Below, piece by piece: positions 18,912 through 61,267 of a stretch of 64,000 nt of DNA. Made by a program: the position numbers and the translations under genes. Each line of letters begins with the position of its first letter. The first letter of the stretch is position 1. The DNA is from an uncultured Gammaproteobacteria bacterium (GTDB lineage Bacteria > Patescibacteriota > Patescibacteriia > UBA1558 > S5-K13), in NCBI GenBank assembly GCA_964424195.1, contig CAYRHT010000002.1:144120-208119 (forward strand). Reading direction: 5' to 3'. Under the pieces are notes generated by a model, which was not told the origin of the DNA, searched no databases, and was given only the letters and a program-made list of their open reading frames with translations.

Positions 18912-19200
18912 TTATTTACTCAAAATCATCTTTTTGATTTCACTATATCTGCCCGAGGTGAGTTTATAAAAATAAACTCCAGAAGATACAGCATTGTTGT
19001 TTTGATCAGTTCCGTTCCATGTTACTATATGTGAGCCAGCATCAATTTGCCCGTCCACTAGTGTTTGAACTCTCTGACCTTTGACATTGTAGATTGTAAG
19101 TTTAACATCGCTTTGTTTACGAATATTAAACTTGATAGTTGTCGATGGATTGAAAGGATTTGGGTAATTACCGAGAAGTTTTGTAGCTTCTGAAATTAAT
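18912..19200. repeat. Nucleotide-level repeat (about 90% identity with 49451..49740) covering the CTD-coding 3' ends of two paralogous genes
   Basis: About 50-nt perfect match agatacagcattgttgttttgatcagttccgttccatgtta plus flanking similarity. Confidence 0.7.
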
Positions 19201-21140
19201 TCCGAACTATCAATTGAAGTGAACCATTCACTTTCATAACAACCCTGATCAATACTAATACTATTATAAGCACCAGTATCAAGATCAAGAATCACTTCCC
19301 CATTCCATTCATAATAAATAGTTCCGGCATCAATACAAGGAGACCCTTCAGAAAGATAATAACTTCCAGCCTGTGGACCATTGAATAAAGGATCTTCCGA
19401 AATGTTTCCTTCCAACCAATCGAAAGTGGAATTACCGTTAACAAAAATACCTTCTTCCCCGTCTTTAACATCTGAATAAGAAACAGTTAAACTACTATTG
19501 TCGTCTAAATTCATCTGAAAATCAACGAAAGGATCCCAAAGAATTGAATTTAAAACCAATAAATTACTGTCCCCGGCAATTATACTGGATGCAATTCCGG
19601 TGTTATCAGCCATTGTAATATTGGTTAATTCCAGTTCAGATCCTTCGACAACTATTATACCGCCACCATCATAAATCCAGCCATTGTTCACGCGAAAGAT
19701 AGAGTTTCTAATTCTCGTATTTGTTTCATCGATGAAAAGACCAGCTCCATTATTCCCAGAATTACCACCAATAGTAGTACGAGCAATTGTTAATTCTCCT
19801 GTTGAGTCGCAGCTAATTCCACCACCATGTCCATTCATAACATCAATATTATTTCCGGATACAGATCCACCTTGAATTAATACTGTATAACAATCAGAAA
19901 TATTAATTCCACCACCATAATGACTAGTGTTACTATATATCAAACAATCAGCTATTGTTCCATTGGAATTTGTAGCATAAATACCACCACCACCAGCATA
20001 ACCAGTGTTACCATGAAATTCTGAATTATAGATTTGGAATGTCTGATTATCAATAAAAATACCACCACCAGCACTACTAGCATGATTTTCTCTAATGTCA
20101 GAATTTTCAACTAGTATTTGACTATTCCATGTAAATATTCCGCCACCTTTGGTAGCTACATTATCTGTGATATGGGAATTAACTATGGAAACCATTGGCG
20201 AATTATAACATGCGATACCACCACCATGACGATCGGTATCATTATTTGATATTTCTACATTTACAATACTAACATTATTACTATAACTCATGTAAATTCC
20301 CGAACCATCACCACCAGCACTAGTCTCATTATCCATTATCAAACAATTTCTAATAATCGAATCATGACACATATCCATACTAATTCCTGAACCATTGCCT
20401 GCATGATCACCGTCTTTAATGATAAATCCAACTATTTCAAAAGTACAGCCAGTAGCAGTTAGGCATTTTCCAGAACTATTACCATTGATAATAGTTGCCC
20501 CAATCGGATAAGTGGGTCCTAAAAGCTCATTCATAGATATAATTTTGATATCCTTATCTAAATAAAGATTTTCATAATATATATTCGATTGAACTAAAAC
20601 CACATCTCCGTCTTGAGCAGAATCAATACCACTTTGGATAGTATCTCCCATAACATTGATTAATCTTCCGGTTATTGATATTTCATTCCCTATAAGAGGA
20701 AAAATACCATTTACATTTCCAGATGCTGTTTCGATAGCATCAGCGTTTAGAATCAAAAATTGAAATTCAGGTTCATTTTGATCAAAAACAGTCATTCTGG
20801 TTTTTAATTGAGTCCATCCTGTAAGGGGATTATCAGGAGTGAATGTTATTTCTTGATTGATGTTATCGAAAAATGTTGGGCCAGTTATATGTTCATCATT
20901 TTCGTCTAATATTTGATGATAATCACACGATTGAACCATTATACCGTAAGCTGGTTTTATTGTAATCGAATAAACAGTGTCCTGAATTATTTCTAACTCA
21001 AGAGTCATTATGACTATATTGTCTGGACCAACTGTTTCTGTATTGACTTGTGATGAAGCATTAACTACTGCTCCTAAACTTACCATTGCAACCATTAAGA
21101 TTGCCATTACGAATACGACTAATAATGAGTTTCTCATCAT
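18912..21140 (-). CDS. Secreted parallel beta-helix repeat protein with T9SS-type C-terminal sorting domain
   Basis: Signal peptide; many GGGI/NxxxN beta-helix repeats; C-terminal NYPNPFNPSTTI...SGVYFYKL...KKMIL domain (Por_Secre_tail-like). Confidence 0.75.
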   Translation of the reverse strand: MMRNSLLVVFVMAILMVAMVSLGAVVNASSQVNTETVGPDNIVIMTLELEIIQDTVYSITIKPAYGIMVQSCDYHQILDENDEHITGPTFFDNINQEITFTPDNPLTGWTQLKTRMTVFDQNEPEFQFLILNADAIETASGNVNGIFPLIGNEISITGRLINVMGDTIQSGIDSAQDGDVVLVQSNIYYENLYLDKDIKIISMNELLGPTYPIGATIINGNSSGKCLTATGCTFEIVGFIIKDGDHAGNGSGISMDMCHDSIIRNCLIMDNETSAGGDGSGIYMSYSNNVSIVNVEISNNDTDRHGGGIACYNSPMVSIVNSHITDNVATKGGGIFTWNSQILVENSDIRENHASSAGGGIFIDNQTFQIYNSEFHGNTGYAGGGGIYATNSNGTIADCLIYSNTSHYGGGINISDCYTVLIQGGSVSGNNIDVMNGHGGGISCDSTGELTIARTTIGGNSGNNGAGLFIDETNTRIRNSIFRVNNGWIYDGGGIIVVEGSELELTNITMADNTGIASSIIAGDSNLLVLNSILWDPFVDFQMNLDDNSSLTVSYSDVKDGEEGIFVNGNSTFDWLEGNISEDPLFNGPQAGSYYLSEGSPCIDAGTIYYEWNGEVILDLDTGAYNSISIDQGCYESEWFTSIDSSELISEATKLLGNYPNPFNPSTTIKFNIRKQSDVKLTIYNVKGQRVQTLVDGQIDAGSHIVTWNGTDQNNNAVSSGVYFYKLTSGRYSEIKKMILSK

Positions 21141-43597: not shown

Positions 43598-45382
43598 CTA
43601 TTCCAGGATAGCTTTAATTCTTCTGACTCCACTAGAAGCAGATTGCTCTTTCTTTATCTTAAATATCCCTAATTCGGAGGTATTATTTACATGAGGACCA
43701 CCACAAATCTCTTTACTGAAAGGACCAATATTATATACTTTTACTTTATCTCCATATTTATCTCCAAATAAACCAACAGCTCCTTCATTTTTGGCTTCAT
43801 CAACTGATTTTTCTTCACAATTTATTTCTAATTTAGCATCTATTTGTTCATTAACCAAATCTTCTACTTTCTGCTTTTCCTCATCGGTCATTTTTTCTGA
43901 ATGAGAAAAATCAAATCTTAATCTTTCGGCGTTTAAATTAGAACCTCTTTGTTGGACATGTTCACCTAATACTTTTCTTAAAGCTTCGTGTAATAGATGA
44001 GTAGCTGTGTGATATTTAGTAACTTCTTCAGAATGATCAGCTAAACCACCTTTAAATTTTCCAGCACTAGCAGTTCGAGATAAATCTTTATGTTTAGCAA
44101 ATTCTTGATTGAATTCTTCTATATTAATCTTCTCTCCTCTTTCTTCTGCTAAGTCAACTGTCATTTCCAAGGGAAAACCATAAGTTGAATAAAGTCTAAA
44201 AGCATCTTCACCCTTAAGTTTTTCTAATTTATTGAATTCTTTTAATCCTTTATTTAAAGTTTTTTCAAATTGTTTTTCTTCTTTTTCTAAATTATTTAAA
44301 ACTACATCTTTGTTTCTTTCTAACTCTGGGTAAGTTTCTTTCATTAGGTTAATAACAACTTTAGCTATCTCAACTGTCAAATCTATTTCTTGATTAATAT
44401 TTAATAACTTACCGTGTCGAATAGCTGTTCTGAGTAATCTTCGAACCACATAACCTTGATCTAAATTAGAAGGAGCAATTCCTAAATTGTCGCCCATGAT
44501 GAAAACAGCACTTCTTATATGGTCAGCAATGATTCGAATAGATTTTAATTCAGTTTCATTTGCTTCGGAAATATTAGCTAGTTCTTTAATTCTATTAACA
44601 ATTGGGATGAATAGGTCGCAATCATAAACATTATCAGCTTCATTTAAGAGTGCAGTAGCTCGGTCTAAGCCAAAGCCAGTATCAATTTGTGGTGTTTCTA
44701 ATTCTCGGTAAGAACCATCAGCTTCTTTGTAGTAGAACATAAAAACATCATTCCAGATTTCAGCATATTTTCCACAAGAACATCCAGGTTTACATTCTGG
44801 AGAACATCCTTTTTTACCAGTATCAACAAACATTTCAGTATCTGGTCCACAAACTCCTGAATTTCCAACTGGTCCCCACCAATTATCTTCTTTAGGTAGT
44901 GGGAATATTATTTCATTTTCTTCAGCTTTAATGTCTGTAGTTTGAAAACATTCTTGCCATATTTTAATAGACTCCTCGTCTTTAGAAATATCTTGATCTC
45001 CTTCAAAGACAGTTACGTACAATTTATGAGGATTAATTCCTAACCATTCTTTAGAAGTTAAAAATTCCCAAGACCATTTAATCATTTGTTCTTTGTCATA
45101 AGCTCCTAATGGCCAATTACCAAGCATCTCGAAGAAACTTAAATGCCAAGAATCACCGACACAATCAATATCGCCAGTTCGGATACATTTTTGACAATTA
45201 GCAATGGCAGTACCAGCAGGATGCTTCTCACCCATTAAAAATGGAATTAGAGGTTGCATGCCAGCAGTATTGAATAATGTGGTGGAATCATTCTCAGGAA
45301 TTAAAGAAGCACTAGGAGTTATAGTATGTCCTTTAGATTTAAAGAATTCTAAATATTTTTTTCTAATATCAGCAGAGTTCAT
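43598..45382 (-). CDS. alaS: Alanine--tRNA ligase, compact form lacking C-terminal C-Ala domain (594 aa)
   Basis: Class II catalytic domain, editing HxxxH (HTATHLLHEAL) and CGGPHV motifs; ends shortly after the editing core. Confidence 0.85.
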   Translation of the reverse strand: MNSADIRKKYLEFFKSKGHTITPSASLIPENDSTTLFNTAGMQPLIPFLMGEKHPAGTAIANCQKCIRTGDIDCVGDSWHLSFFEMLGNWPLGAYDKEQMIKWSWEFLTSKEWLGINPHKLYVTVFEGDQDISKDEESIKIWQECFQTTDIKAEENEIIFPLPKEDNWWGPVGNSGVCGPDTEMFVDTGKKGCSPECKPGCSCGKYAEIWNDVFMFYYKEADGSYRELETPQIDTGFGLDRATALLNEADNVYDCDLFIPIVNRIKELANISEANETELKSIRIIADHIRSAVFIMGDNLGIAPSNLDQGYVVRRLLRTAIRHGKLLNINQEIDLTVEIAKVVINLMKETYPELERNKDVVLNNLEKEEKQFEKTLNKGLKEFNKLEKLKGEDAFRLYSTYGFPLEMTVDLAEERGEKINIEEFNQEFAKHKDLSRTASAGKFKGGLADHSEEVTKYHTATHLLHEALRKVLGEHVQQRGSNLNAERLRFDFSHSEKMTDEEKQKVEDLVNEQIDAKLEINCEEKSVDEAKNEGAVGLFGDKYGDKVKVYNIGPFSKEICGGPHVNNTSELGIFKIKKEQSASSGVRRIKAILE

Positions 45383-49450: not shown

Positions 49451-52400
49451 TTACTTAGTTAAGATCATTTTTTTCACTTCACTGTAACTATCAGAAGTTA
49501 ATTTGTAGAAATAAACTCCGGAAGATACAGCATTGTTGTTTTGATCAGTTCCGTTCCATGTTACCGTATGTGAACCGGCATCAATTTGCCCATCCACGAG
49601 TGTTGTAACTTTCTGACCTTTGATGTTAAAGATTGCTAATTCAGTATTGCCTTTCTTAGCAGTACTAAACTGGATTGTTGTTGACGGATTGAAAGGATTT
49701 GGGAAGTTTCCGAGAAGCTGTGTTTTAGCTCCCGGAATTTGTTCGGGATCCGCAGAAACAGAAGTCAAATTGGTATTAACAGCTTCAATTTGTAATTCTT
49801 CTAATCCTTCCGGTAATTCAAATTCAAATAAATTACGATTTTGACTTTGAATGATTTGAGGGACTTCAATATCAAGATTTTCAATGTTTGAAAAGTATTG
49901 GATTCCTCGTTCTGTTTGAATTCCAAATGCACTCCAAGGCTCATCATTAACCCATCCAGAGACTAGAACAGTATTTCCTTCTGTCTCAATCGTTAGATTA
50001 TTTCCCTCTTGATTAGATACGAACGATAATTGAGTCGGATTGTATGTGAAAGGTTCTCCGACCTGATAACCGTAATCGTAACCTTGTAACGACGCATTCA
50101 AAATCCAGTAATCAATAATTGTTGCTTGACTTAATCCCGATAGTATTCCTCTGGATAAATTGATTTCTCCTTGAGGATTATACATAGTTCCGGTTAAGTT
50201 AACATGATTTGATATTACTAGGTGTTGCCCTAAGAGATATAAATCGTATTCATCAACATCTTCTCCACCTTCACTAATGTTACCTCGACTTCCATCATTG
50301 GTGATAAAGAGCTGAGAACCATATAATGATCTTCTTTCTTGGATACCTTCATAGTCAATTAAGGATTCATCAAAACTACGAAGTTCAATCACTGTTTCAG
50401 AGTCATTAAAGAATTGAAGATTCATTAATCTGACATTAGTAACTCCAGGAAAACAATCTTTTGTCCAAAGCATTTCAGCTAATGGACCACCTCTTTCCAT
50501 TTCCGGAATACTTAAATCATCAAATTCAGATGCCCACTCAGGAATTTTTGACCTACCTCTTTCCCAATCTGGAGTAACAATAGAGCCATTTACTTCTAAT
50601 TCTTGATTGTAAGTAACCCAAATTGAATCAGGTTTATTGTAACAACCAATGTAATTATGAGCTCCCATTATTATATACTCCGGGGAATTCCAATGAATTT
50701 CTTGAAGAATAATGTTGACATCACCTTTTTGACCTAGTAGAAGATATTTGTCACCTTCATGCCAGAAATTTCTATTAGTGACTCTTACTTCGGTTAGAGG
50801 ATAATCATCGTTGATTTCTCCTTCATTAAGTGTTGTAAATTGATAATAATTTCCATTATTATCATCGATAGTAACGTTTCCGGCTTCATCCGTGGCCTCT
50901 AAGTAGTAGTTATAAGTAGTTGCTGAATCAAGTAATAATCTTTGATTTCCATTGTGATAAGGATAAGTATCAAAAACATGATCTTTGGCATAATAGATGG
51001 GACTATAACCAATAAAATATTCATTAATTTCAACATAAGTAGTGTCTAAATCAAGAAACATTTTCATATTTGTATATTCATCTGTTTCACAGGTCATCAT
51101 ATAGCTACGAGAAGTTACTAAACTATCGGATACATTAGAAATTATTGGAGGAAAAGTATCTTCTAAAGTTGTAAAAGAGTCTTCCATAATAGTTTCATTT
51201 CCGGAAAGATCTCGCAATGTTAATTCATAAGTATAGGTTTCTCCAGGAGGTAATTCATTTAATTCAAAACCATCACTTTCATTATGTGCTGGATTAAGAA
51301 TATTGTAAATTATCCCACCATTTTGATTTCTGACTATACACCAATATCTACAAGGTTCATTAGCTTCCCAATAGATCGAGACTGTACTGTAATCATTTTC
51401 ATTAAAAACAACTCCATAATCAATTATTTCCGGAGGTGTAGTATCAGGATCACCAGTGGTTGTAACTCCGAATCCTGACTCCGTTGAATTTTCATTTTGA
51501 TTAGTAGAAGTTAGCGTACAGTAATGAGTTTCTCCTGAAAGCAAACCATAAACATTAAATTCTGTAGAATCAGAATATCCAATGGTTCCATACCAAGCAG
51601 GATAACCATTTCCATCATCAACAACCAGTTGATAAGTGCATGCTTCATTAGCATTCACTGATACTGCAAACGATGAATCTGTAATAGTATGAACAAGAAC
51701 ATCAATTTCTGGAGGTGTTAGATATTCTACTATGTCCATCGGATTTCCTCGAACAGGATATACACCCAAAATTTGATCTTCCGATAGTGCAATGTTGTTT
51801 TGGTCTTTTACATAGAAATTTGAACCAGAATTAACTTCAATACCTACTATTTGTCCTGATGCATTGAGATTGATATCTCCTACAATGGATAATGGTTTCA
51901 TGTCTTGATCAAGAATATTTAGAAAATATCCACCTCCATTTCCAGGATTTTCTAACATTGTCCAATTTCCGGTAAAATCATCAGCTACAGCTACTAGTGT
52001 ACTATCGAAATAAGCTCTGATGTTATTGATAGTGCCATCATACCCTAATTGATATTGATGAAGTGGAAATTCATACAATTTGAGATCTCCATATAGAGCT
52101 GTCAGATCAAATCTTGCAAGTTCAACATTGTTTTGTCCGGCCATAAGCGTAGAGCTTTCCGGTGTTTCTGCACTTAATCCAATTTGTAAGGTTGGTCTAA
52201 CGATAGTAAAGATAGGCCCTCTCAAGGGAAATTCTCCAACTACTAAACCACTCGATAGAATAATATCGTCCAAAGATTCAATCTCAAACTGTATAAGATC
52301 ACCGAATATTGGATATTGTACTACATCAGTTCTGACACCGAAAACATTGTTGCCTGCGGATAGACCTACGTTATTACAAGTATGTTTTCCGGTAGTGTCA

Positions 52401-52678
52401 TTAAACTGTATATCCCAGGTAGTTCCAGTGTCGGGACTGTAAAGATGAATATCTTCGGAACTTAGAAAAGAAAATGAAATTGGTGTTAGATTTAATTCGA
52501 CCATCTCATCTTCTATTTGAGAATAAACCTCGAAAATATACACAGTGTTATTCTGAGTATCAGCACGTAATACTCCATCTTCAAGCTCACCTAATGAATA
52601 TTCAGCTTGTCCAAACAAACTTCCTACAGCAACCATAAAGATTGCCATAACTAATACGACTAATGTTGATTTTTTCAT
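49451..52678 (-). CDS. Large secreted protein (1075 aa) with FN3-like/Ig-like regions and T9SS-type C-terminal sorting domain
   Basis: Signal peptide; C-terminal NFPNPFNPSTTI...SGVYFYKL...KKMIL domain near-identical to that of 18912..21140. Confidence 0.7.
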   Translation of the reverse strand: MKKSTLVVLVMAIFMVAVGSLFGQAEYSLGELEDGVLRADTQNNTVYIFEVYSQIEDEMVELNLTPISFSFLSSEDIHLYSPDTGTTWDIQFNDTTGKHTCNNVGLSAGNNVFGVRTDVVQYPIFGDLIQFEIESLDDIILSSGLVVGEFPLRGPIFTIVRPTLQIGLSAETPESSTLMAGQNNVELARFDLTALYGDLKLYEFPLHQYQLGYDGTINNIRAYFDSTLVAVADDFTGNWTMLENPGNGGGYFLNILDQDMKPLSIVGDINLNASGQIVGIEVNSGSNFYVKDQNNIALSEDQILGVYPVRGNPMDIVEYLTPPEIDVLVHTITDSSFAVSVNANEACTYQLVVDDGNGYPAWYGTIGYSDSTEFNVYGLLSGETHYCTLTSTNQNENSTESGFGVTTTGDPDTTPPEIIDYGVVFNENDYSTVSIYWEANEPCRYWCIVRNQNGGIIYNILNPAHNESDGFELNELPPGETYTYELTLRDLSGNETIMEDSFTTLEDTFPPIISNVSDSLVTSRSYMMTCETDEYTNMKMFLDLDTTYVEINEYFIGYSPIYYAKDHVFDTYPYHNGNQRLLLDSATTYNYYLEATDEAGNVTIDDNNGNYYQFTTLNEGEINDDYPLTEVRVTNRNFWHEGDKYLLLGQKGDVNIILQEIHWNSPEYIIMGAHNYIGCYNKPDSIWVTYNQELEVNGSIVTPDWERGRSKIPEWASEFDDLSIPEMERGGPLAEMLWTKDCFPGVTNVRLMNLQFFNDSETVIELRSFDESLIDYEGIQERRSLYGSQLFITNDGSRGNISEGGEDVDEYDLYLLGQHLVISNHVNLTGTMYNPQGEINLSRGILSGLSQATIIDYWILNASLQGYDYGYQVGEPFTYNPTQLSFVSNQEGNNLTIETEGNTVLVSGWVNDEPWSAFGIQTERGIQYFSNIENLDIEVPQIIQSQNRNLFEFELPEGLEELQIEAVNTNLTSVSADPEQIPGAKTQLLGNFPNPFNPSTTIQFSTAKKGNTELAIFNIKGQKVTTLVDGQIDAGSHTVTWNGTDQNNNAVSSGVYFYKLTSDSYSEVKKMILTK

Positions 52679-52952: not shown

Positions 52953-54650
52953 CTACTTTAAAAGTATCATTTTCTTTGTAGAAGTATATCTTCCACCATG
53001 TTTCATCTTGTAAAGATAAACTCCGGAAGCTACAGAATTACCGTTTTCATCATCTCCATTCCAAATTACTTCATGTAAACCAATATCAATTATTCCATTC
53101 ACTAAGGTTTTTACTTCCCGACCTTTAGCATTGAAAATAGTTAATTCAACTTTAATACCATCTTCTAAAACATTGTAGTTGATAGTAGTTGATGGATTGA
53201 AGGGATTTGGATAGTTTCCAAGAAGATTACTTGTAATTTCTACTATTTCTTCAGAATTAGAGTTTGCAGGTTCATATTCACAATAACCCATGTCTGGAGC
53301 ATCTCCATAGTAAAGAGGTATTTCATAATCTTCTTCATACCATGTTAAGAAATCAATTCCAGCATCAATGCAGGGAGAATTATCGGAAAGTTGGTAATGA
53401 TCATTGTCGGCATCAACAAATTGAGGATCTACTTCAATATTACCACCTTGATCAAGAGTGCCAGCTGTCCAGTTAGAGTCATGACCATAAATAGTAGAAT
53501 TGTAAACTTCAACATTCTCTTCTTCTGAACTACCTATTGATCGTCCAGTTTCATTAAAAACAATAATACAATTCAATAACAAGAGTCTCTCGGAAAAGAA
53601 CATACTAATTGTTGAACTAGGGTCGGTAGCTAAATATGGTCCGTTATGAGACATAGTGGTATTAATGATTGCACTTTCTGTAGTTTGCCAAGTATTTAAA
53701 GCTCCACCATTACCAGCAGTTATACCAGAATAATTATGATGGAATAGGCTATTTCTAATCAGGAAACTATACCTTGCAATATTCATTCCACCACCACCAC
53801 AGTTAATAGAATTGTTGTATTCAAAAATACAATTATTAACTTCAATATGATATACAACCGGATTTTCTCCATTAACATGTAAGCCCCCTCCAAAGTATCC
53901 AGCGGTATTATTCGAAAATAAATTATTTTCCAAATATGATAAAGAGTGATACAAAAAAGCCCCACCTCCGTCACTTGAATCTCCACAAGTATTTCCAGAG
54001 AATACACAGTCCTGAATATCAACATTACTTGATAGTTTAATATATAATCCACCTCCATTTGCTCCAGATGAATTATTAATGAATTCACTGGATCTGATAG
54101 TAGTATCACTATATTGAATGTAAGCGCCACCACCACCTTGAGAAGCTGAATTATTCATTATTTGACTATCTTCTATTAGAATAGTTGAATTATCACAATA
54201 AACTCCAGCGCCATTACTATTGTAAGTTTCAAAGTTATTATCTTTGATTAAACAATTCTCGATAATCACATTTTCACAATCTTCAATATGAATTCCGGTT
54301 CCATTATCTTCTATTCTTCCATTTTGGATAACTAAACCAGAAATTACGATATTAGATTCAAAAAGATATAAACATCTTCCATTTTGGTTTCCATCAATAA
54401 TAGTTTGAGAAATATAGCTAGTATCTTGAGTTGTGTAAAAAAGAGAAGCTAAAATTATCTCTTTATTATTGAATACGATATTATTCTCGTAGTAAGTTCC
54501 AGGTTGTACTAACACAGTATCCCCATCTGCTGAAGCATTAATTGCTTCTTGGATCATTACATAATCACTAGGGACGTTAATTGTTTCTGCGACCAAATTT
54601 CCAGCAATCATTAAGATTGCGACTAATACGACTAATCTTAATCCTTTCAT
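52953..54650 (-). CDS. Secreted parallel beta-helix (pectate-lyase-fold-like) protein with T9SS-type C-terminal domain (start re-assigned to MKGLRLVVLV...)
   Basis: AGGAGG RBS before the internal Met; signal peptide; beta-helix repeats; CTD NYPNPFNPSTTINYN...SGVYLYKM...KKMILLK. Confidence 0.7.
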   Translation of the reverse strand: MKGLRLVVLVAILMIAGNLVAETINVPSDYVMIQEAINASADGDTVLVQPGTYYENNIVFNNKEIILASLFYTTQDTSYISQTIIDGNQNGRCLYLFESNIVISGLVIQNGRIEDNGTGIHIEDCENVIIENCLIKDNNFETYNSNGAGVYCDNSTILIEDSQIMNNSASQGGGGAYIQYSDTTIRSSEFINNSSGANGGGLYIKLSSNVDIQDCVFSGNTCGDSSDGGGAFLYHSLSYLENNLFSNNTAGYFGGGLHVNGENPVVYHIEVNNCIFEYNNSINCGGGGMNIARYSFLIRNSLFHHNYSGITAGNGGALNTWQTTESAIINTTMSHNGPYLATDPSSTISMFFSERLLLLNCIIVFNETGRSIGSSEEENVEVYNSTIYGHDSNWTAGTLDQGGNIEVDPQFVDADNDHYQLSDNSPCIDAGIDFLTWYEEDYEIPLYYGDAPDMGYCEYEPANSNSEEIVEITSNLLGNYPNPFNPSTTINYNVLEDGIKVELTIFNAKGREVKTLVNGIIDIGLHEVIWNGDDENGNSVASGVYLYKMKHGGRYTSTKKMILLK

Positions 54651-54738
54651 TATTCCTCCTTGGTTTTTTAAAGAATTATAATTTTTCTCGGTTTTCAAAA
54701 AACAAAATTCGATACTTACGATACAAAGGTATCATGTC

Positions 54739-54767: not shown

Positions 54768-56111
54768 CTAAAATTCATATGTTTGTCCATATTCTGGAAT
54801 TGTAGTATCAATATCTGAAGATATATCATCGGCTAGTTTCTTGTTTTCTAAGTCCTCTCCATGCATAATGAAGACTTTTTGAAGCCCTTTTATCTTCCCT
54901 AACCAATTTAGTAGTTGATTATGGTCAGAATGAGTAGAAAAAGAGCCAGTTTTAGTTATCTGACAATTAACATCAACCATTTTGTCATGAATAATTACAT
55001 TCTTAGCTCCTTCAATCAATTCTCTTCCTAAAGTACCTTTAGCTTGATAGGACATGAATAAAACATGATTATTAGGATTATCTAGATTACGTTTAAGATG
55101 ATGAGGGATTCTTCCACCAGTACACATCCCACTAGAAGCCAGAATTATCTTAGGACCATGAACATGATTAATTTCCATTGATTCATCACGACTCTTAGTA
55201 AATTTTAAATTAGGAAAGTCAAAAATATCATCTCCCGAGTTAATTAAATACTCTGCTTCTTGATCATAGAGATTACTATGTTTTTGATATATCTCAGTAG
55301 CTCTAATTGCTAAAGGAGAATCAAAGAAAACTGGAATCTTAGGAATTATCTTGTTCTCTATAAGTTCATTAAGTTGATATAAAGCTTCTTGAGATCTTTC
55401 CATGGCAAAGACGGGCATAATTAAAGTTGCTTTTCTTTTAAAATTATCTAGAATAATTTCTTTAAATATCCGAGCTCCTTCTTCTTTAGATTCATGAAAT
55501 CTTCCACCATAGGTAGATTCTATAAAAAGAATGTCACCTTGTTTTACAAAGTCAGGATCTTTGATAATTGGAGCTGGTGGATTTCCTAGATCTCCAGAGA
55601 AAACTACTTTTTTCTCTACATCTTCATCATTAATCCAGATTTCAAAGATACTAGAACCTAAAATATGACCAGCATCTTGCATCCTTAAACTTATTTGTTC
55701 ATTAATTTCAATCTTTTGATAATAACTAAAAGCTTTAAAACTCTTAACTATCTTCTCAATATCTTTTTCTTCATAAAGAGGATTTTTTTCATCTTCTCGT
55801 TGGATCTTGATAGAATCTAAAAGAATTATTTCAGTTAAATCTTTAGTAGCAGTAGTAGCATATATTTTTCCTTTAAAACCTTCTTTAAATAATTTAGGTA
55901 AACGACCACAATGATCAACATGAGCATGAGTTAGTAATACAAAGTCTATTTCTTTGGGATTAAAATTAAATTCTTCATTATTCTTACTCTTAGAATCTGA
56001 ATGTCCTTGAAACATTCCACAATCTACTAGAAATTTGGAATTAGATGTTTCTACTAAAGTACAAGAACCAGTCACTTCTCGACAAGCTCCATGAAAAGAT
56101 GCTTTAATCAT
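54768..56111 (-). CDS. Metallo-beta-lactamase fold / beta-CASP ribonuclease
   Basis: HxHxDH motif (LLTHAHVDHCGRLP) and beta-CASP-like C-terminal region; 447 aa. Confidence 0.65.
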   Translation of the reverse strand: MIKASFHGACREVTGSCTLVETSNSKFLVDCGMFQGHSDSKSKNNEEFNFNPKEIDFVLLTHAHVDHCGRLPKLFKEGFKGKIYATTATKDLTEIILLDSIKIQREDEKNPLYEEKDIEKIVKSFKAFSYYQKIEINEQISLRMQDAGHILGSSIFEIWINDEDVEKKVVFSGDLGNPPAPIIKDPDFVKQGDILFIESTYGGRFHESKEEGARIFKEIILDNFKRKATLIMPVFAMERSQEALYQLNELIENKIIPKIPVFFDSPLAIRATEIYQKHSNLYDQEAEYLINSGDDIFDFPNLKFTKSRDESMEINHVHGPKIILASSGMCTGGRIPHHLKRNLDNPNNHVLFMSYQAKGTLGRELIEGAKNVIIHDKMVDVNCQITKTGSFSTHSDHNQLLNWLGKIKGLQKVFIMHGEDLENKKLADDISSDIDTTIPEYGQTYEF

Positions 56112-56979: not shown

Positions 56980-56996
56980 AATTTAGGTAAAAAGAA

Positions 56997-57040
56997 AAAG
57001 CAGCGTATTCAATTTAGAATATACTGCTTTAAAAATTAAG
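56997..57040 (+). terminator. Imperfect hairpin plus T-run after proC
   Basis: GCAGCGTATTC...GAATATACTGC followed by TTTAAAAATT. Confidence 0.35.
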
Positions 57041-57105
57041 TTAGATTCTCGAGAGATTAGAACTCTCTTCTTTTGATTCTATGGTCATGTAAGAGATTCT
57101 AACTT
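57038..57105. other. Long-stem hairpin (13-bp stem AAGTTAGATTCTC/GAGATTCTAACTT, about 42-nt loop with internal GAGAG/CTCTC hairpin)
   Basis: Inverted repeat seen directly in sequence. Confidence 0.35.
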
Positions 57106-57366
57106 TAGGGTATGGCGTGGATAAATTTAAGTCCTACTATATTGCAGTAGTACAATCCTTAATATTATCCACACCATTTTACAAAGCCTTATTTTTCTTA
57201 TGAAATTAACAAGGCTTTAGACCAGCTTGGTGATTCAACTATTTCAGATCATCATCCGTGACTAGTCACTGGTCGGTTCGATTATCAAACTAGAGGCATT
57301 CAATTCATTTTCCGATGGTATAAGCATAAATGATTAAATGTTCATCTGAATAATCTAATTTTAAAT

Positions 57367-57442
57367 TGGCTACCCTGGGGGGATTTGAACTCCCGGCCTT
57401 ACCGTGAAACAGTAATACCTCTACCACTAAGGTTACAGGGCA
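57367..57442 (-). tRNA. tRNA-Glu (anticodon UUC), CCA encoded
   Basis: Anticodon loop GTTTCAC, T-arm GAGTTCAAATCC, 76 nt. Confidence 0.8.
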
Positions 57443-57450
57443 TTTAATAT

Positions 57451-57538
57451 TGGAGCGGGAAACGAGATTCGAACTCGCAACCTCTTGGAAGCAATCAACT
57501 TGTGCCGCCAAGCACTCTACCAATTGAGTTATTCCCGC
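57451..57538 (-). tRNA. tRNA-like gene with tRNA-Gly-type acceptor/D/T arms but a 19-nt anticodon loop (intron-containing or degenerate; anticodon undetermined)
   Basis: GCGGGAA acceptor, D-arm ACTC-AATTGGTA-GAGT, T-arm GCGAG-TTCGAAT-CTCGT, 3' TTCCCGC-T-CCA; CTTGG/CCAAG stem encloses CGGCACAAGTTGATTGCTT. Confidence 0.5.
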
Positions 57539-57678
57539 TATTAAAATCCAGATCTTATCTTCTCTTGATGTAATTCCTCCCCGTCTTGCGCTATATCGGG
57601 CTTATTGAAGATAAGATCTTTTAGATAACTTCGACCCTTTTAGATTTTAATTTCTCTAACAGGAGTTATCTGTGAATA

Positions 57679-57754
57679 TGGTGTGATCAGAAGGATTTGA
57701 ACCCACGACCTCAACCTTGCAAGGGTTGCGCTCTCCCAACTGAGCTATGATCAC
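57679..57754 (-). tRNA. tRNA-Ala (anticodon UGC), CCA encoded
   Basis: Anticodon loop CTTGCAA, D-arm GCTC-AGTTGGGA-GAGC, 76 nt. Confidence 0.8.
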
Positions 57755-57848
57755 TGTTATTTTTTCCTCGAGTCTTACCTATTTTATCTCTCCGATTTTC
57801 CTCGGCCTATAAAGGGAAGATAAGCCTCTGGTTTCCAATTTATAATTC

Positions 57849-57928
57849 ATGCGGACTTTTGTTTTGAAATTAAATACTGAACTGCTTTAAAGCACAATAA
57901 TAATTCAAGAACAAGTAAAAGTCCGCAT
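57849..57928. other. Long-stem hairpin element (12-bp perfect stem ATGCGGACTTTT/AAAAGTCCGCAT, 56-nt loop containing a TGCTTTAAAGCA palindrome)
   Basis: Perfect inverted repeat seen directly. Confidence 0.4.
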
Positions 57929-57958
57929 ATTTTCAATTTTCCTCCGAATTATATAGAC

Positions 57959-58036
57959 GGGAGATTTGTTTACCTGAGTCTGTCATGTTTAGAGCATTTA
58001 TATTGATGACTCAATATCCGATAAACAAAATCTCCC
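57959..58036. other. Long-stem hairpin element (14-bp stem GGGAGATTTGTTTA/TAAACAAAATCTCCC with 1-nt bulge, about 49-nt loop)
   Basis: Inverted repeat seen directly. Confidence 0.4.
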
Positions 58037-58088
58037 TTTAAATTTATACAGTATTAGAAGATTATAGTATTTATCGTTTTTTGTCAAT

Positions 58089-58133: not shown

Positions 58134-59408
58134 TTAGTAGAAACAATCATATCTTCCACTACTAGGCTTATTAATGACTTTACAATCAAAAACTTCTAAA
58201 CAAATATTTTTTTGGTTTTCATCACTCATTTCATTACATTGATTTTTCCATTCGGGGGTAGTTTTTTCATCAAGTGTTTTGTATTGTAAAACATCGTACA
58301 TGCACCCTTTAAAAGTAGAAGGATGTTTTTCTTGTTTTATATTTTCACAAATTGTTATAGATTTCATATATTTTGCCACTCGAAATATGCAGTAATTTTT
58401 CCTCTCTTTTAATTCATTACATAATTCAACATTTTTTCTTACAACCGCTATTCCTGATATACAAAGTTCTTTATTTTCCTCATCTTCTAAATCATAACAA
58501 CTTTCCAAATCTCTATTCTTAACATTCACATCTTTAATGCATCTATTACGAGAATCTAAAGTCTCAATTTCTAAACAGACCTCAGGGTCTTTTTTTAAAA
58601 GAGCAATCATACTTAAACATTTATTAGGGCGTTCTAGATTTTCTTTACAGGATTTCCAGTTACGAGTATCTATATATAGATCATTAAGACATCTTTTTCT
58701 ATTATAATCAGTAAGTTTTTCACAAAATTCTTCGGTAATTTCTATTTTATATTTATAATCACCAAGACTTTTACTATATATTTGAGAATAACATTTTTGT
58801 TGATTAGCTTTTTTTACTTGGAGGTTACAGATACTAGGATTTTTTAATAAATCTACAGCAACAGTAGTTATAATATCTTTATAATTAAAGAATGTTATTA
58901 AAGAAAAAGATATAATTCCAATAATAATACTAATTAATTTAAATTTTTTGTAGTTAATTTTAATAATTTCATGTTTCTTATTTTCATTTTCTTCTAGAAT
59001 AAATTTAAATATTGTCATTACTACGATAATGGCTAGGATAAGTAGTGTAACTATCGTAAATTCGCTAATCATAGCTTGACTGGTTGACGGACCAAGAAGC
59101 ATCGAAATTAATTTTATTTTAAATAGGGAAAATACCAAGACAAAATATACAATAGTTAATTTGGAGATTAAATATAATTTTTTCTTTCTTTTTGAACTTA
59201 CTTTTATTTTTTGGAGAAAATAATTTAAATAGAAACTTAGAATAATAACTAATATTAAAAAAATTGGTAATGCCGCAACAATACTGAAATATCCTAGAAA
59301 AGACCAAAATATCTGCCAAAAAATTTGTTCGCTTAAACATAATAATAAAAGTATTACTATAAATAGTATACTAATAATTATTTTTTGTTTAACTAATTTC
59401 TTTTCCAT
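58134..59408 (-). CDS. Membrane protein with N-terminal multi-TM region and Cys-rich extracytoplasmic domain (424 aa)
   Basis: 5-6 TM helices then about 22 Cys in repeated C-x(n)-C pattern; KINYKKFK motif shared with 60707..61267. Confidence 0.5.
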   Translation of the reverse strand: MEKKLVKQKIIISILFIVILLLLCLSEQIFWQIFWSFLGYFSIVAALPIFLILVIILSFYLNYFLQKIKVSSKRKKKLYLISKLTIVYFVLVFSLFKIKLISMLLGPSTSQAMISEFTIVTLLILAIIVVMTIFKFILEENENKKHEIIKINYKKFKLISIIIGIISFSLITFFNYKDIITTVAVDLLKNPSICNLQVKKANQQKCYSQIYSKSLGDYKYKIEITEEFCEKLTDYNRKRCLNDLYIDTRNWKSCKENLERPNKCLSMIALLKKDPEVCLEIETLDSRNRCIKDVNVKNRDLESCYDLEDEENKELCISGIAVVRKNVELCNELKERKNYCIFRVAKYMKSITICENIKQEKHPSTFKGCMYDVLQYKTLDEKTTPEWKNQCNEMSDENQKNICLEVFDCKVINKPSSGRYDCFY

Positions 59409-60706: not shown

Positions 60707-61267
60707 TTATAAAAAATAATATAAAAAATAAAGAGAAAGTCCTGTCATAAGGCTAATCCATTTTAATTTTTTATAATTAATTTTAATGCAAGGGAGTTCT
60801 TTATTTTTCTTTTCTTTAAAAATCACAAAGACTATTATTACAAATAAAATTAGGGGTGATAATATTAAAATTGTTATACTAAAAAAGTTGAGTGATGAAA
60901 TGAGTAATGGAATAAGTGATGAAAGAGGAAGTTGGATACTAAATATTCTCAATTTAAATGCATAAAAAAATAAAATTAAAAGGGTGATTATAAATTTGGC
61001 AGTTCTATATATATTTCTTTTTTGTTCTACTTTTAGTTCTAATCTATTCATGAAATATACAAAATAAGAACTTAGACTAATAAGTATAATTGAAAATATA
61101 ATCATAACTATGGAAATAGCTATTCCAAAAGAATTGAAATCTACTATATTAATTCTCATGATGTCAATGTCTAAAATATCAATATAGAATAAAACCATTA
61201 TTGCTAGAGATAATAATATTGCTATTCCTAAATTTATGAATAATTGTATTTTATTATTTTTCTTCAT
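60707..61267 (-). CDS. Multi-TM membrane protein, truncated paralog of the N-terminal half of 58134..59408 (186 aa)
   Basis: Same TM topology and shared IKINYKKLKWIS motif. Confidence 0.45.
   Translation of the reverse strand: MKKNNKIQLFINLGIAILLSLAIMVLFYIDILDIDIMRINIVDFNSFGIAISIVMIIFSIILISLSSYFVYFMNRLELKVEQKRNIYRTAKFIITLLILFFYAFKLRIFSIQLPLSSLIPLLISSLNFFSITILILSPLILFVIIVFVIFKEKKNKELPCIKINYKKLKWISLMTGLSLYFLYYFL

What the first reader, a model, noticed from the sequence alone, without database searches (positions are those of the whole stretch)
57451..57538. tRNA-like gene with canonical tRNA-Gly-type arms but a 19-nt anticodon loop
Acceptor stem, D-arm, variable loop, T-arm, discriminator and CCA are all canonical. 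The acceptor and T-arm are nearly identical to bacterial tRNA-Gly (GCGGGAA...GCGAGTTCGAATCTCGTTTCCCGCTCCA). The CTTGG/CCAAG anticodon stem, however, encloses 19 nt instead of 7. No contiguous 12-nt deletion yields a conventional loop with U33 and a purine at 37. Twelve nt is far too short for a bacterial group I tRNA intron. The gene sits between normal tRNA-Glu and tRNA-Ala genes, so it is probably transcribed. Possibilities include a small spliced or processed insert, a tRNA with a non-standard anticodon loop, or a degenerate copy.
Basis: seen in the sequence. Interest (0 to 1): 0.6.

Follow-up and report, generated by a model that had tools for sequence, protein, structure and literature searches.

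The report
Non-decoding glycine-tRNA look-alike in variable cassette
A real, reproducibly sequenced gene in a tiny-genome (Patescibacteria) bacterium folds like a perfect glycine tRNA except that its anticodon arm is a long rod that cannot read codons, and it sits in a fast-changing, dispensable block of odd tRNAs attached to a conserved small structured RNA.

Summary
On the minus strand, 57451-57538 encodes an 88-nt cloverleaf with perfect stems, intact tertiary nucleotides and an encoded CCA, but 19 nt between the anticodon-stem strands. No single deletion of 6-21 nt restores a canonical loop. The sequence is identical in six independent assemblies, so it is not an artefact. Its 3' third is 94-97% identical to E. 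coli tRNA-Gly.

The context changes the reading. The neighbouring 'Ala' and 'Glu' tRNAs are not normal: Ala lacks G3:U70, and Glu has a Gln-type acceptor and a deviant D-loop. All three follow a conserved promoter and long hairpins downstream of form III RuBisCO. Relatives keep the promoter and first hairpin, but the slot holds other odd tRNAs ('Asn' and 'Asp' in one relative, a tRNA-like gene with a 6-nt loop in another) or none. Housekeeping tRNA-Gln and tRNA-Ser are 100% and 99% identical between the same two lineages.

Best reading (0.45): a tRNA-Gly-derived module that cannot decode, kept for its fold, cut out by tRNA-processing enzymes and not spliced. Main rival (0.35): a recently broken accessory tRNA with no function. 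Splicing is unsupported. Interest is moderate.

The parts
57451..57538 (-). X, the finding: an 88-nt tRNA-Gly-derived tRNA-like gene with encoded CCA. The anticodon arm is CUUGG/CCAAG, a C.U mismatch, GGCA/UGCU and a 9-nt loop CAAGUUGAU.
   Evidence: ARAGORN tRNA-???; Rfam tRNA 57.4 bits; MFE and centroid fold; stem audit; similarity to tRNA-Gly.
57480..57498 (-). The 19 nt enclosed by the anticodon stem (CGGCACAAGUUGAUUGCUU). They are predicted to form a 4-bp inner helix and a 9-nt loop.
   Evidence: no deletion restores a canonical loop; no special complementarity to the rest of the transcript.
57679..57754 (-). First tRNA of the cassette, 'Ala(UGC)'. It has G3-C70 rather than G3:U70, A73 and a U50.U64 mismatch in the T-stem.
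57367..57442 (-). Third tRNA of the cassette, 'Glu(UUC)'. It has a Gln-type acceptor (U1-A72, G73), U14/G21 in the D-loop and A52.C62; Rfam scores it only 38.7 bits.
   Evidence: For comparison, the genuine tRNA-Gln at 756-830.
58061..58087 (-). Promoter-like element: TTGACA, 15 nt, TATAAT. It matches exactly at 25 specified positions in the window, L007 and L008.
   Evidence: Read; alignments A1 and A2. The consensus scan missed it because it accepts only 16-18 nt spacers.
57755..58054 (-). Structured leader with three long hairpins and an unpaired GGAGGAAAAUUG motif. The first hairpin is kept in five lineages.
   Evidence: Fold z = -4.45; hairpin 1 in W, L007, L008, L133 and L137 with z from -2.7 to -5.1; alignment A2.
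57539..57678 (-). Spacer between the first tRNA and X. It forms two hairpins, the second with a perfect 13-bp stem, and both are conserved in L007 with compensatory changes.
   Evidence: inverted repeat I3.
56985..57366 (-). Highly structured trailer ending in a terminator hairpin shared with the convergent P5CR gene.
   Evidence: Fold z = -8.21.
57040..57103 (-). Possible relic of a fourth tRNA: a long acceptor-like stem enclosing a T-arm-like hairpin, GAGAG UUCUAAU CUCUC.
   Evidence: Repeat family D1, 68% identical to the T-arm of the Glu-like tRNA; fold. Inferred, weak.

Best explanation
X derives from a bacterial tRNA-Gly gene and can no longer decode. It belongs to an accessory, fast-evolving tRNA cassette appended to a conserved small structured RNA unit just downstream of form III RuBisCO in one Patescibacteria clade. 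Proposed mechanism: (1) The conserved promoter near 58087-58061 drives a structured transcript of about 1.1 kb made of leader hairpins, 'Ala', spacer hairpins, X, 'Glu' and trailer hairpins (inferred). (2) X keeps everything that RNase P and the 3'-end enzymes read, namely a perfect 7-bp acceptor stem, the T-arm, D-arm and elbow nucleotides, the discriminator and an encoded CCA. It is therefore cut out like a tRNA, and that cut also frees the flanking hairpin RNAs (inferred from sequence). (3) Nothing is spliced. The anticodon limb folds into an irregular rod of about 10 pairs with a 9-nt loop, too long and wrongly shaped to reach the decoding centre. The mature 88-nt RNA is tRNA-shaped but does not decode. 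The fold is a prediction; the inability to decode follows from established tRNA geometry. (4) Selection in this cassette acts on the cloverleaf, not on the anticodon or identity elements. X thus serves as a tRNA-shaped processing or stability module ('punctuation'), or at least is tolerated as one.
For: The cloverleaf is intact except for the anticodon arm. No excision repairs the arm. The sequence is identical in six assemblies. tRNA-Gly ancestry is supported. The cassette is dispensable and variable. The syntenic slot holds 'Asn(GUU)' and 'Asp(GUC)' in L007, a tRNA-like gene with a 6-nt loop in L012, and no detectable tRNA in L008, L013, L133 or L137, while the promoter and first hairpin persist. 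Control: tRNA-Gln is 75/75 and tRNA-Ser 89/90 identical between the window genome and the L007 lineage. At the matching slot positions the acceptor strands share only 1-2 of 7 bases, yet still pair. Across the six slot tRNAs only 3 of 126 stem pairs are mismatched, and all six keep CCA, so the fold is maintained while the sequence, anticodon and identity elements change. Two independent cases, X and the L012 gene, combine an aberrant anticodon loop with fully paired stems. The spacer flanked by tRNAs is itself conserved through compensatory changes, so it is probably a functional RNA that tRNA processing would release.
Against: There are no expression, processing or charging data. Only one sequence of X exists, because all assemblies come from one clone, so the inner helix GGCA/UGCU cannot be tested by covariation. 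The 'compensatory' acceptor changes could instead reflect replacement by, or gene conversion from, other tRNA genes. X resembles L007 'Asn' in its acceptor and D-arm (5/7, 5/7, 4/4) more than its positional counterpart 'Asp'. Four slot tRNAs keep canonical 7-nt loops. At position 1 the two lineages differ at all three anticodon bases while C32, U33, A37 and A38 are kept, which hints that some of them still decode. The tRNA complement of the rest of the genome could not be surveyed, so I cannot show that X is redundant.
Confidence: 0.45

Rival explanations
1. X is simply a recently inactivated accessory tRNA-Gly gene. One or two mutational events, a net insertion of 12 nt in the anticodon arm, destroyed a redundant gene that has not yet decayed further. 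It may still be transcribed and trimmed, but it has no function.
For: The cassette is dispensable in relatives. Each member has a different defect: Ala lacks G3:U70 and has U50.U64, Glu has a deviant D-loop and A52.C62, and L012 has a 6-nt loop. A possible fourth tRNA relic lies in the trailer. Slot tRNAs evolve far faster than housekeeping tRNAs. With only one or two events since inactivation, intact stems are expected by chance.
Against: Stems in all six slot tRNAs stay almost perfectly paired despite large sequence divergence (3 mismatches in 126 pairs). Flanking non-coding DNA is only about 73% identical between the same lineages. This argues for continuing selection on the fold, or for recent replacement. 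Two independent anticodon-loop lesions with no stem damage (X and L012) are more than expected if hits were random. The genome is about 1 Mb, and in such genomes dead DNA tends to be deleted (general knowledge).
Confidence: 0.35
2. The extra nucleotides are removed or bypassed by an unknown short-intron, endonuclease-plus-ligase or editing pathway, so that X matures into a working decoder, whether Gly or a UGC reader.
For: Precedent exists for unexplained inserts in non-archaeal tRNA genes: the 'enigmatic introns' in Lak megaphage tRNAs (PMC6784885). Deleting GGCACAAGUUGA leaves a 5-bp stem and a 7-nt loop CUUGCUU with U33. The string CUUCCAA, which is the canonical Gly-UCC loop, is present at the 3' side of the insert.
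Against: No contiguous deletion of 6-21 nt gives both U33 and a purine at 37. CUUCCAA has no pairing partners for a stem (sequence). There is no bulge-helix-bulge geometry: the 4-bp helix is flanked by a 1x1 mismatch, not by 3-nt bulges. No Rfam intron or ribozyme family matches. The Lak inserts are about 90 nt and leave canonical loops. The cassette is dispensable.
Confidence: 0.07
3. X is charged with glycine through its intact acceptor identity set and acts outside the ribosome, as an aminoacyl donor for cell-envelope or secondary metabolism, or as a decoy or regulator for a tRNA-binding protein. The cassette neighbours would be identity-swapped tRNAs with similar special roles, including deliberate mistranslation.
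For: G1:C72, C2:G71, G3:C70 and U73 are all present. Those are the bacterial tRNA-Gly acceptor determinants (established knowledge; review PMC9976931 is listed but was not read). Every cassette tRNA mixes the identity features of one amino acid with the anticodon of another: a Gln-type acceptor with a Glu anticodon, a Gly-like acceptor with an Asn anticodon, and an Ala body without G3:U70. At position 1 the change is confined to the three anticodon bases.
Against: C35 and C36, major GlyRS determinants (established knowledge), are not presented in an anticodon loop. No Fem-type transferase, cyclodipeptide synthase or dedicated synthetase was seen beside the locus. The cassette is absent from close relatives. 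All of this rests on sequence inference.
Confidence: 0.08
4. The 12 extra nucleotides are an assembly or sequencing artefact.
For: None found.
Against: The 29-nt arm and 7.5 kb of surrounding sequence are identical in six assemblies built from different samples by different pipelines.
Confidence: 0.01

Closest known systems
Bacterial elongator tRNA-Gly (E. coli GCC type; UCC/CCC types in phages)
   Same: The acceptor stem GCGGGAA/UUCCCGC, U73, CCA and the T-arm are 94-97% identical to E. coli tRNA-Gly. The D-arm AAUAACUCAAUUGGUAGAGU is shared with many phage tRNA-Gly genes.
   Different: X has no 7-nt anticodon loop and no NCC anticodon in position. The anticodon limb is about 5-6 pairs too long.
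Aberrant or pseudo-tRNA genes (ARAGORN 'tRNA-???', tRNAscan 'undetermined'), such as the B. cereus pseudo-tRNA 'tRNA-Other' (recalled from memory, not checked here)
   Same: It is a cloverleaf with a non-standard anticodon region, and both its decoding ability and its function are in doubt. Such genes make up about 1.3% of the tRNAs in the phage contigs examined.
   Different: Those cases have 6- or 8-nt loops. None shows an extended helix with a 19-nt insert while every other feature stays perfect.
Archaeal bulge-helix-bulge tRNA introns
   Same: They are short inserts (down to about a dozen nucleotides, from memory) in the anticodon region, containing a 4-bp helix.
   Different: X has no 3-nt bulges, and excision does not yield a canonical loop. 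The host is a bacterium: its tRNA-Gln and tRNA-Ser are bacterial in type and its protein homologues are from Patescibacteria.
'Enigmatic introns' of Lak megaphage tRNAs (PMC6784885)
   Same: They are inserts in the anticodon loops of tRNA genes outside archaea and eukaryotes, with no known splicing route. One of them lies in a tRNA-Gly(UCC).
   Different: The Lak inserts are about 90 nt long, and removing them leaves a canonical loop and anticodon. X's insert is 12 nt and cannot be removed cleanly.
tRNA-like processing handles: MALAT1 mascRNA, murine gammaherpesvirus-68 tRNA-miRNA transcripts, and E. coli tRNA-operon spacer sRNAs such as 3'ETS-leuZ (recalled from memory; PMC8457004 and PMC3482243 appear in the listing but were not read)
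   Same: This is what the locus would work like: tRNA-shaped, non-decoding elements within one transcript as structured hairpin RNAs. RNase P and RNase Z cuts at the tRNA shape then define the ends of the neighbouring RNAs.
   Different: Those examples are eukaryotic or viral, or involve normal decoding tRNAs. No processing data exist for this locus, so membership cannot be claimed.
tRNA anticodon shifts and tRNA remolding at syntenic loci (for example PMC3923123, listed but not read)
   Same: Syntenic tRNA genes carry different anticodons in related lineages (position 1: UGC against GUU).
   Different: Here the acceptor stem and discriminator change as well. The resulting tRNAs lack the canonical identity sets for their anticodons.

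Membership tests
tRNA (Rfam RF00005) cloverleaf | Acceptor, D, anticodon and T stems with conserved D-loop and T-loop nucleotides, scoring above the family's gathering threshold | tested here: met
   57.4 bits against a gathering score of 29. All four stems are paired.
Decoding-competent elongator tRNA | A 5-bp anticodon stem closing a 7-nt loop with U33 and a purine at 37 | tested here: not met
   The loop is 19 nt. The fold gives a rod of about 10 pairs and a 9-nt loop. No deletion of 6-21 nt restores the feature.
tRNA-Gly | Acceptor identity set G1:C72, C2:G71, G3:C70 and discriminator U73 | tested here: met
   Read directly from the sequence. The 3' third is 94-97% identical to E. coli tRNA-Gly.
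tRNA-Gly | An NCC anticodon (C35, C36) presented at positions 34-36 | tested here: not met
   UCC occurs only at the junction of the loop and the 3' stem strand (CUU/CCAAG). It is not in a loop context.
tRNA-Gly | Aminoacylation with glycine | not testable with these tools
   This needs a charging assay or charged-tRNA sequencing.
Archaeal-type BHB intron | Two 3-nt bulges separated by a 4-bp helix, with excision giving a canonical anticodon loop | tested here: not met
   The 4-bp helix GGCA/UGCU is flanked by a 1x1 C.U mismatch below and by the terminal loop above. No excision product is canonical.
Archaeal-type BHB intron | A splicing endonuclease (EndA) and a ligase encoded in the genome | not tested
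   Only 64 kb (plus about 20 kb of flanks) of a genome of roughly 1 Mb was available.
Group I intron in a bacterial tRNA | A ribozyme core of roughly 200 nt or more (P1-P9) in the anticodon loop | tested here: not met
   The insert is 12 nt. No Rfam intron match was found at E<=1.
tRNA pseudogene (non-functional relic) | Loss of function together with neutral decay, seen as uncompensated stem mutations and absence of the gene in relatives | tested here: inconclusive
   Decoding is lost and the cassette is dispensable. However, the stems are intact in X and nearly so in all six slot tRNAs.
tRNA-like processing module (mascRNA/TMER-like) | Cleavage by RNase P or RNase Z that releases adjacent functional RNAs, with no aminoacylation or decoding | not testable with these tools
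   Indirect support only: intact acceptor, T-arm and elbow, and flanking hairpins conserved by compensatory changes.

The most novel reading that the evidence does not exclude
A clade of Patescibacteria carries a composite non-coding operon in which fast-evolving, tRNA-shaped modules are selected for fold but not for decoding. Their anticodon arms vary freely (19-nt and 6-nt loops, swapped anticodons), and their acceptor stems turn over while remaining paired. These modules punctuate and release conserved hairpin RNAs. This would be a bacterial counterpart of the mascRNA and herpesvirus tRNA-miRNA strategy. Alternatively, the modules are a set of identity-swapped tRNAs used for deliberate recoding.
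Probability: 0.2. Interest if true: 0.65.

Novelty: new variant of a known kind. Interest (0 to 1): 0.45.

Why it matters
If X and its neighbours are kept for their shape rather than for decoding, they would show tRNA genes being recruited in bacteria as processing or structural modules of a small-RNA operon. They would also give a natural example of how far the anticodon limb can change while the rest of the tRNA stays under selection.

There is a practical point as well. tRNA counts are used to judge genome completeness and coding capacity in Patescibacteria, and such counts would wrongly score this cassette as Ala, Glu and 'undetermined'. If X turns out to be just a fresh pseudogene, the locus still documents an unusually fast-turnover tRNA slot beside fully conserved housekeeping tRNAs.

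Tried and rejected
1. Splicing. I enumerated every deletion of 6-21 nt and none gives a canonical loop. I looked for bulge-helix-bulge geometry in the fold and found none. The Rfam scan at E<=1 found no intron or ribozyme.

2. Assembly error. Rejected by six identical assemblies.

3. Base-pairing of the 19-nt loop with the rest of the transcript. The best duplex is -11.2 kcal/mol against a mean of -14.3 for shuffled loops, so nothing stands out. The 9-mer CAAGTTGAT occurs only once in the window.

4. Phage origin of the cassette. The D-arm motif is common in phage tRNAs. However, the conserved spacer hairpin has no match in viral contigs, and blastn against phages gives only generic tRNA hits.

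5. More relatives. The genome-contig scan with RuBisCO returned two non-syntenic loci. The metagenome scan with the promoter pattern returned only the contig already held as L008 and one other contig with the same sequence there. Protein look-ups reached ten lineages in all, and only three carry tRNAs in the slot.

6. A leader peptide. A small ORF is readable in the window and in L007 but not in L008 or L133, so I dropped it.

7. The repeated hairpin as a mobile repeat family. There are no other copies in the window.

8. Literature searches for unusual tRNAs in Patescibacteria found nothing specific.

Full report
**1. The observation.** The feature is on the minus strand at 57451-57538. ARAGORN reports it as tRNA-??? 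between tRNA-Ala(UGC) at 57679-57754 and tRNA-Glu(UUC) at 57367-57442. The Rfam tRNA model scores it at 57.4 bits against a gathering score of 29. The only irregularity is 18 nt where the model expects 6 in the anticodon loop.

- All four stems pair: acceptor 7/7, D 4/4, anticodon 5/5, and T with 4 Watson-Crick pairs plus one G.U.
- The tertiary-interaction nucleotides, the discriminator U73 and the CCA end are all present in the sequence.
- A script that tried every contiguous deletion of 6-21 nt, with variable loops of 3-6 nt, found none that gives a 5-bp stem and a 7-nt loop with U33 and a purine at 37. The best products are CUUGCUU and AUUGCUU, with anticodon UGC and U37.
- The minimum-free-energy and centroid structures agree. 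The 19 nt extend the anticodon stem through a C.U mismatch and a 4-bp helix (GGCA/UGCU) to a 9-nt loop, CAAGUUGAU.

**2. Not an artefact, and of tRNA-Gly ancestry.** The protein next door (P5CR) is encoded on at least 24 contigs. In the six fetched from ENA, Logan and JGI assemblies, the 29-nt anticodon arm is identical, and 7.5 kb around it is 100% identical to the window. That settles the sequence. It also means all copies come from one clone, so they carry no evolutionary information. The last 32-34 nt of X are 94-97% identical to annotated tRNA-Gly genes in all 5426 complete E. coli genomes. Its best phage matches are tRNA-Gly. Its D-arm motif is shared with phage tRNA-Gly(UCC/GCC/CCC) genes whose acceptor stems differ from X's by zero to two base pairs.

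**3. The host and the neighbours.**
- *Host.* The window is bacterial. tRNA-Gln (U1-A72) and tRNA-Ser are of bacterial type. Homologues of its proteins are labelled Patescibacteria, Komeilibacteria, Moranbacteria and similar. The window carries the AMP-salvage set: form III RuBisCO, ribose-1,5-bisphosphate isomerase and AMP phosphorylase.
- *Neighbouring tRNAs.* The two tRNAs beside X are not normal. 'Ala(UGC)' has G3-C70 instead of the universal G3:U70, and a U50.U64 mismatch. 'Glu(UUC)' has a Gln-type acceptor (U1-A72, G73), U14 and G21 in the D-loop and an A52.C62 mismatch, and scores only 38.7 bits.
- *Transcription unit.* The three genes lie on one strand behind a promoter-like element (TTGACA, 15 nt, TATAAT, 58087-58061). 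They are embedded in strongly structured RNA: leader z = -4.45, spacer z = -3.19, trailer z = -8.21.

**4. Comparative evidence.** Protein look-ups recovered the syntenic region in nine other lineages.

| Locus | Relatedness to the window | Content of the slot |
|---|---|---|
| L007 | P5CR 74%, RuBisCO 93% | Same promoter, leader hairpins and two spacer hairpins; tRNAs are 'Asn(GUU)' with a Gly-like acceptor (GCAGAAA...U73) and 'Asp(GUC)' with G1.U72 |
| L012 | P5CR 61% | One tRNA-like gene, 51.7 bits, all stems perfect, 6-nt anticodon loop |
| L008 | P5CR 69%, RuBisCO 87% | No detectable tRNA; a promoter, a long first hairpin and (as in L133 and the window, not L137) a GGAGGAAAA-type motif remain |
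| L013 | partial P5CR 71%, RuBisCO 89% | No detectable tRNA; short 330-nt slot with a promoter-like element and hairpins |
| L133 | RuBisCO 87% | No detectable tRNA; promoter, first hairpin and motif remain |
| L137 | RuBisCO 79% | No detectable tRNA; a promoter and a long first hairpin remain |
| L132, L136 | RuBisCO 87% and 80% | No slot at all |
| L011 | P5CR 73% | Contig ends 316 nt after P5CR, so the slot is not informative |

The spacer hairpins in L007 are kept through compensatory changes (AGAUAAC/GUUAUCU against AGAUAGC/GCUAUCU; UAUCUUC/GAAGAUA against UAUCCUU/AAGGAUA). The ancestral element therefore appears to be a small structured RNA after RuBisCO. The tRNAs are optional add-ons found in three lineages.

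**5. Rate control.** Between the window genome (L130) and the L007 lineage (L129, on the same contig as L007), housekeeping tRNA-Gln is 75/75 identical. tRNA-Ser is 89/90 identical. In the slot the picture is very different.
- Position 1 (window 'Ala' against L007 'Asn') shares only 2/7 bases on each acceptor strand.
- Position 2 (X against 'Asp') shares 2/7 and 1/7. Every stem still pairs.
- At position 1 all three anticodon bases differ while C32, U33, A37 and A38 are kept.
- Across the six slot tRNAs only 3 of 126 stem pairs are mismatched, and all six keep CCA.
- Flanking non-coding DNA is about 73% identical between the two lineages.

The cassette is thus dispensable and evolves far faster than real decoders, yet its cloverleaf folds are maintained. 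Two of six distinct slot tRNAs have aberrant anticodon loops.

**6. Interpretation.** That X cannot decode is well supported. The anticodon limb is five to six pairs too long, and no anticodon is presented in a 7-nt loop. This conclusion rests on a predicted fold and on established tRNA geometry.

Splicing is not supported. No clean excision exists, there is no bulge-helix-bulge motif, no intron family matches, and the only precedent for unexplained inserts (Lak megaphage tRNAs, PMC6784885) involves inserts of about 90 nt whose removal leaves canonical loops.

Two readings remain.
- *Favoured (0.45).* X is a tRNA-shaped module whose acceptor, T-arm and elbow are under selection. It is cut out by RNase P and the 3'-end enzymes, and those cuts define the ends of the conserved hairpin RNAs that flank it. 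The anticodon arm is free to vary. This accounts for the maintained folds, the retained CCA ends, the two independent anticodon-loop aberrations with perfect stems, and the conserved spacer between tRNAs.
- *Main rival (0.35).* X is a freshly broken accessory tRNA-Gly with no function. This accounts for the dispensability, for a different defect in each member, and for a possible fourth tRNA relic in the trailer at 57040-57103.

Two observations keep more exotic roles open at low probability. Four slot tRNAs keep canonical loops and show changes confined to the anticodon. Each also mixes the identity features of one amino acid with the anticodon of another. These roles are glycylated non-ribosomal donors or decoys, or deliberate recoding.

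**7. Limits.**
- The rest of the roughly 1-Mb genome could not be surveyed for canonical Gly, Ala and Glu tRNAs.
- No expression data were available.
- The apparent compensatory evolution could partly reflect gene replacement or gene conversion. X resembles L007 'Asn' in its acceptor and D-arm more than it resembles its positional counterpart.

**8. Verdict.** The feature is real, and the finding describes the gene itself accurately but is wrong that its neighbours are normal. It is best filed as a new variant of the known class of aberrant or pseudo tRNA-like genes. What is unusual is the extent of the anticodon-arm remodelling in an otherwise flawless tRNA-Gly frame. The setting is also unusual: a fast-turnover tRNA cassette grafted onto a conserved small-RNA locus. 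Interest is moderate (0.45), and higher if the tRNA-shaped-module or identity-swap reading is confirmed.

Noticed in passing
window 57679-57754 (-): 'tRNA-Ala(UGC)' scores 67 bits but has G3-C70 instead of the universal AlaRS determinant G3:U70. Its acceptor stem is palindromic (GUGAUCA/UGAUCAC), and it has a U50.U64 mismatch. By the canonical rule it should not be alanylated.
   Followed up: partly
window 57367-57442 (-): 'tRNA-Glu(UUC)' has a Gln-type acceptor (U1-A72, G73) and resembles the genuine tRNA-Gln at 756-830 in overall design. If charged by a non-discriminating GluRS and recognised by GatCAB, it could insert Gln at Glu codons. This is speculation from sequence only.
   Followed up: partly
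L007 11110-11186 (-) and 10894-10970 (-): In the nearest relative the same slot holds 'Asn(GUU)' with a Gly-like acceptor (G1-C72, U73) and 'Asp(GUC)' with G1.U72. These are again anticodons paired with atypical identity features.
   Followed up: partly
L012 1544-1620 (-): A second aberrant tRNA-like gene occupies the syntenic slot of NCBI assembly GCA_054021555.1. All stems are perfect and U73-CCA is present, but the anticodon loop has 6 nt (UCUGA UAUCAG UCAGA). Rfam scores it 51.7 bits.
   Followed up: partly
window 57755-58087 (-); L007 11187-11450; L008 7930-8290; L133 7310-7600; L137 2440-2660: A small structured RNA unit sits directly downstream of form III RuBisCO in a Patescibacteria clade. 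It has a sigma-70-like promoter and a long closing hairpin (z -2.7 to -5.1); an unpaired GGAGGA(A)AAAU motif follows the hairpin in four of the five lineages (not found in L137), and L133 and L137 end in a terminator. It matches no Rfam family.
   Followed up: partly
window 57539-57678 (-) and L007 10971-11109 (-): The inter-tRNA spacer forms two hairpins that are conserved between lineages through compensatory base changes. It looks like a functional RNA released by tRNA processing.
   Followed up: partly
window 56985-57366 (-): The trailer after the last tRNA is exceptionally structured (z = -8.2) as a chain of long hairpins. One of them (57040-57103) looks like a tRNA top half with a T-arm-like GAGAG UUCUAAU CUCUC.
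   Followed up: partly
window 58134-59408 (-) and 60707-61267 (-): Two lineage-specific membrane proteins flank RuBisCO. They share a homologous transmembrane region (32% identity over 110 aa, E 2e-10), and the larger one has a Cys-rich C-terminal half. Neither has a Pfam match, and both are absent from relatives.
   Followed up: partly
window 43598-45382 (-): The AlaRS is only 594 aa. It has the catalytic domain and the second additional domain but apparently no C-terminal C-Ala domain. This is relevant to how it might read tRNA-Ala acceptor stems.
   Followed up: no
window 54768-56111 (-); L137 2776-4116: A beta-CASP/MBL ribonuclease gene is a conserved neighbour of the RNA slot. In L137 it lies directly downstream of the small RNA unit. 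It could be involved in processing these RNAs; this was not tested.
   Followed up: no
L133, L134, L135 (three JGI samples): Three contigs of one lineage each end about 430-480 nt after RuBisCO, which is inside the RNA slot. This suggests strain variation or repeats that break assembly there.
   Followed up: no
L129 17857-21629: In the L007 lineage, a serine recombinase and a terminase-like gene lie about 4 kb downstream of tRNA-Ser(UGA). A prophage or integrative element may have inserted near that tRNA.
   Followed up: no
L038, L045, L049, L091, L104, L108 (viral contigs): About 1.3% of the tRNAs in the phage contigs fetched have 6- or 8-nt anticodon loops, including possible four-base anticodons (cagg, cccc, tgaa).
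   Followed up: no
window 18912-21140, 49451-52678, 52953-54698 (-): Several large secreted proteins carry C-terminal sorting domains of type IX secretion (Por_Secre_tail, CHU_C). This is unexpected in a Patescibacteria genome.
   Followed up: no
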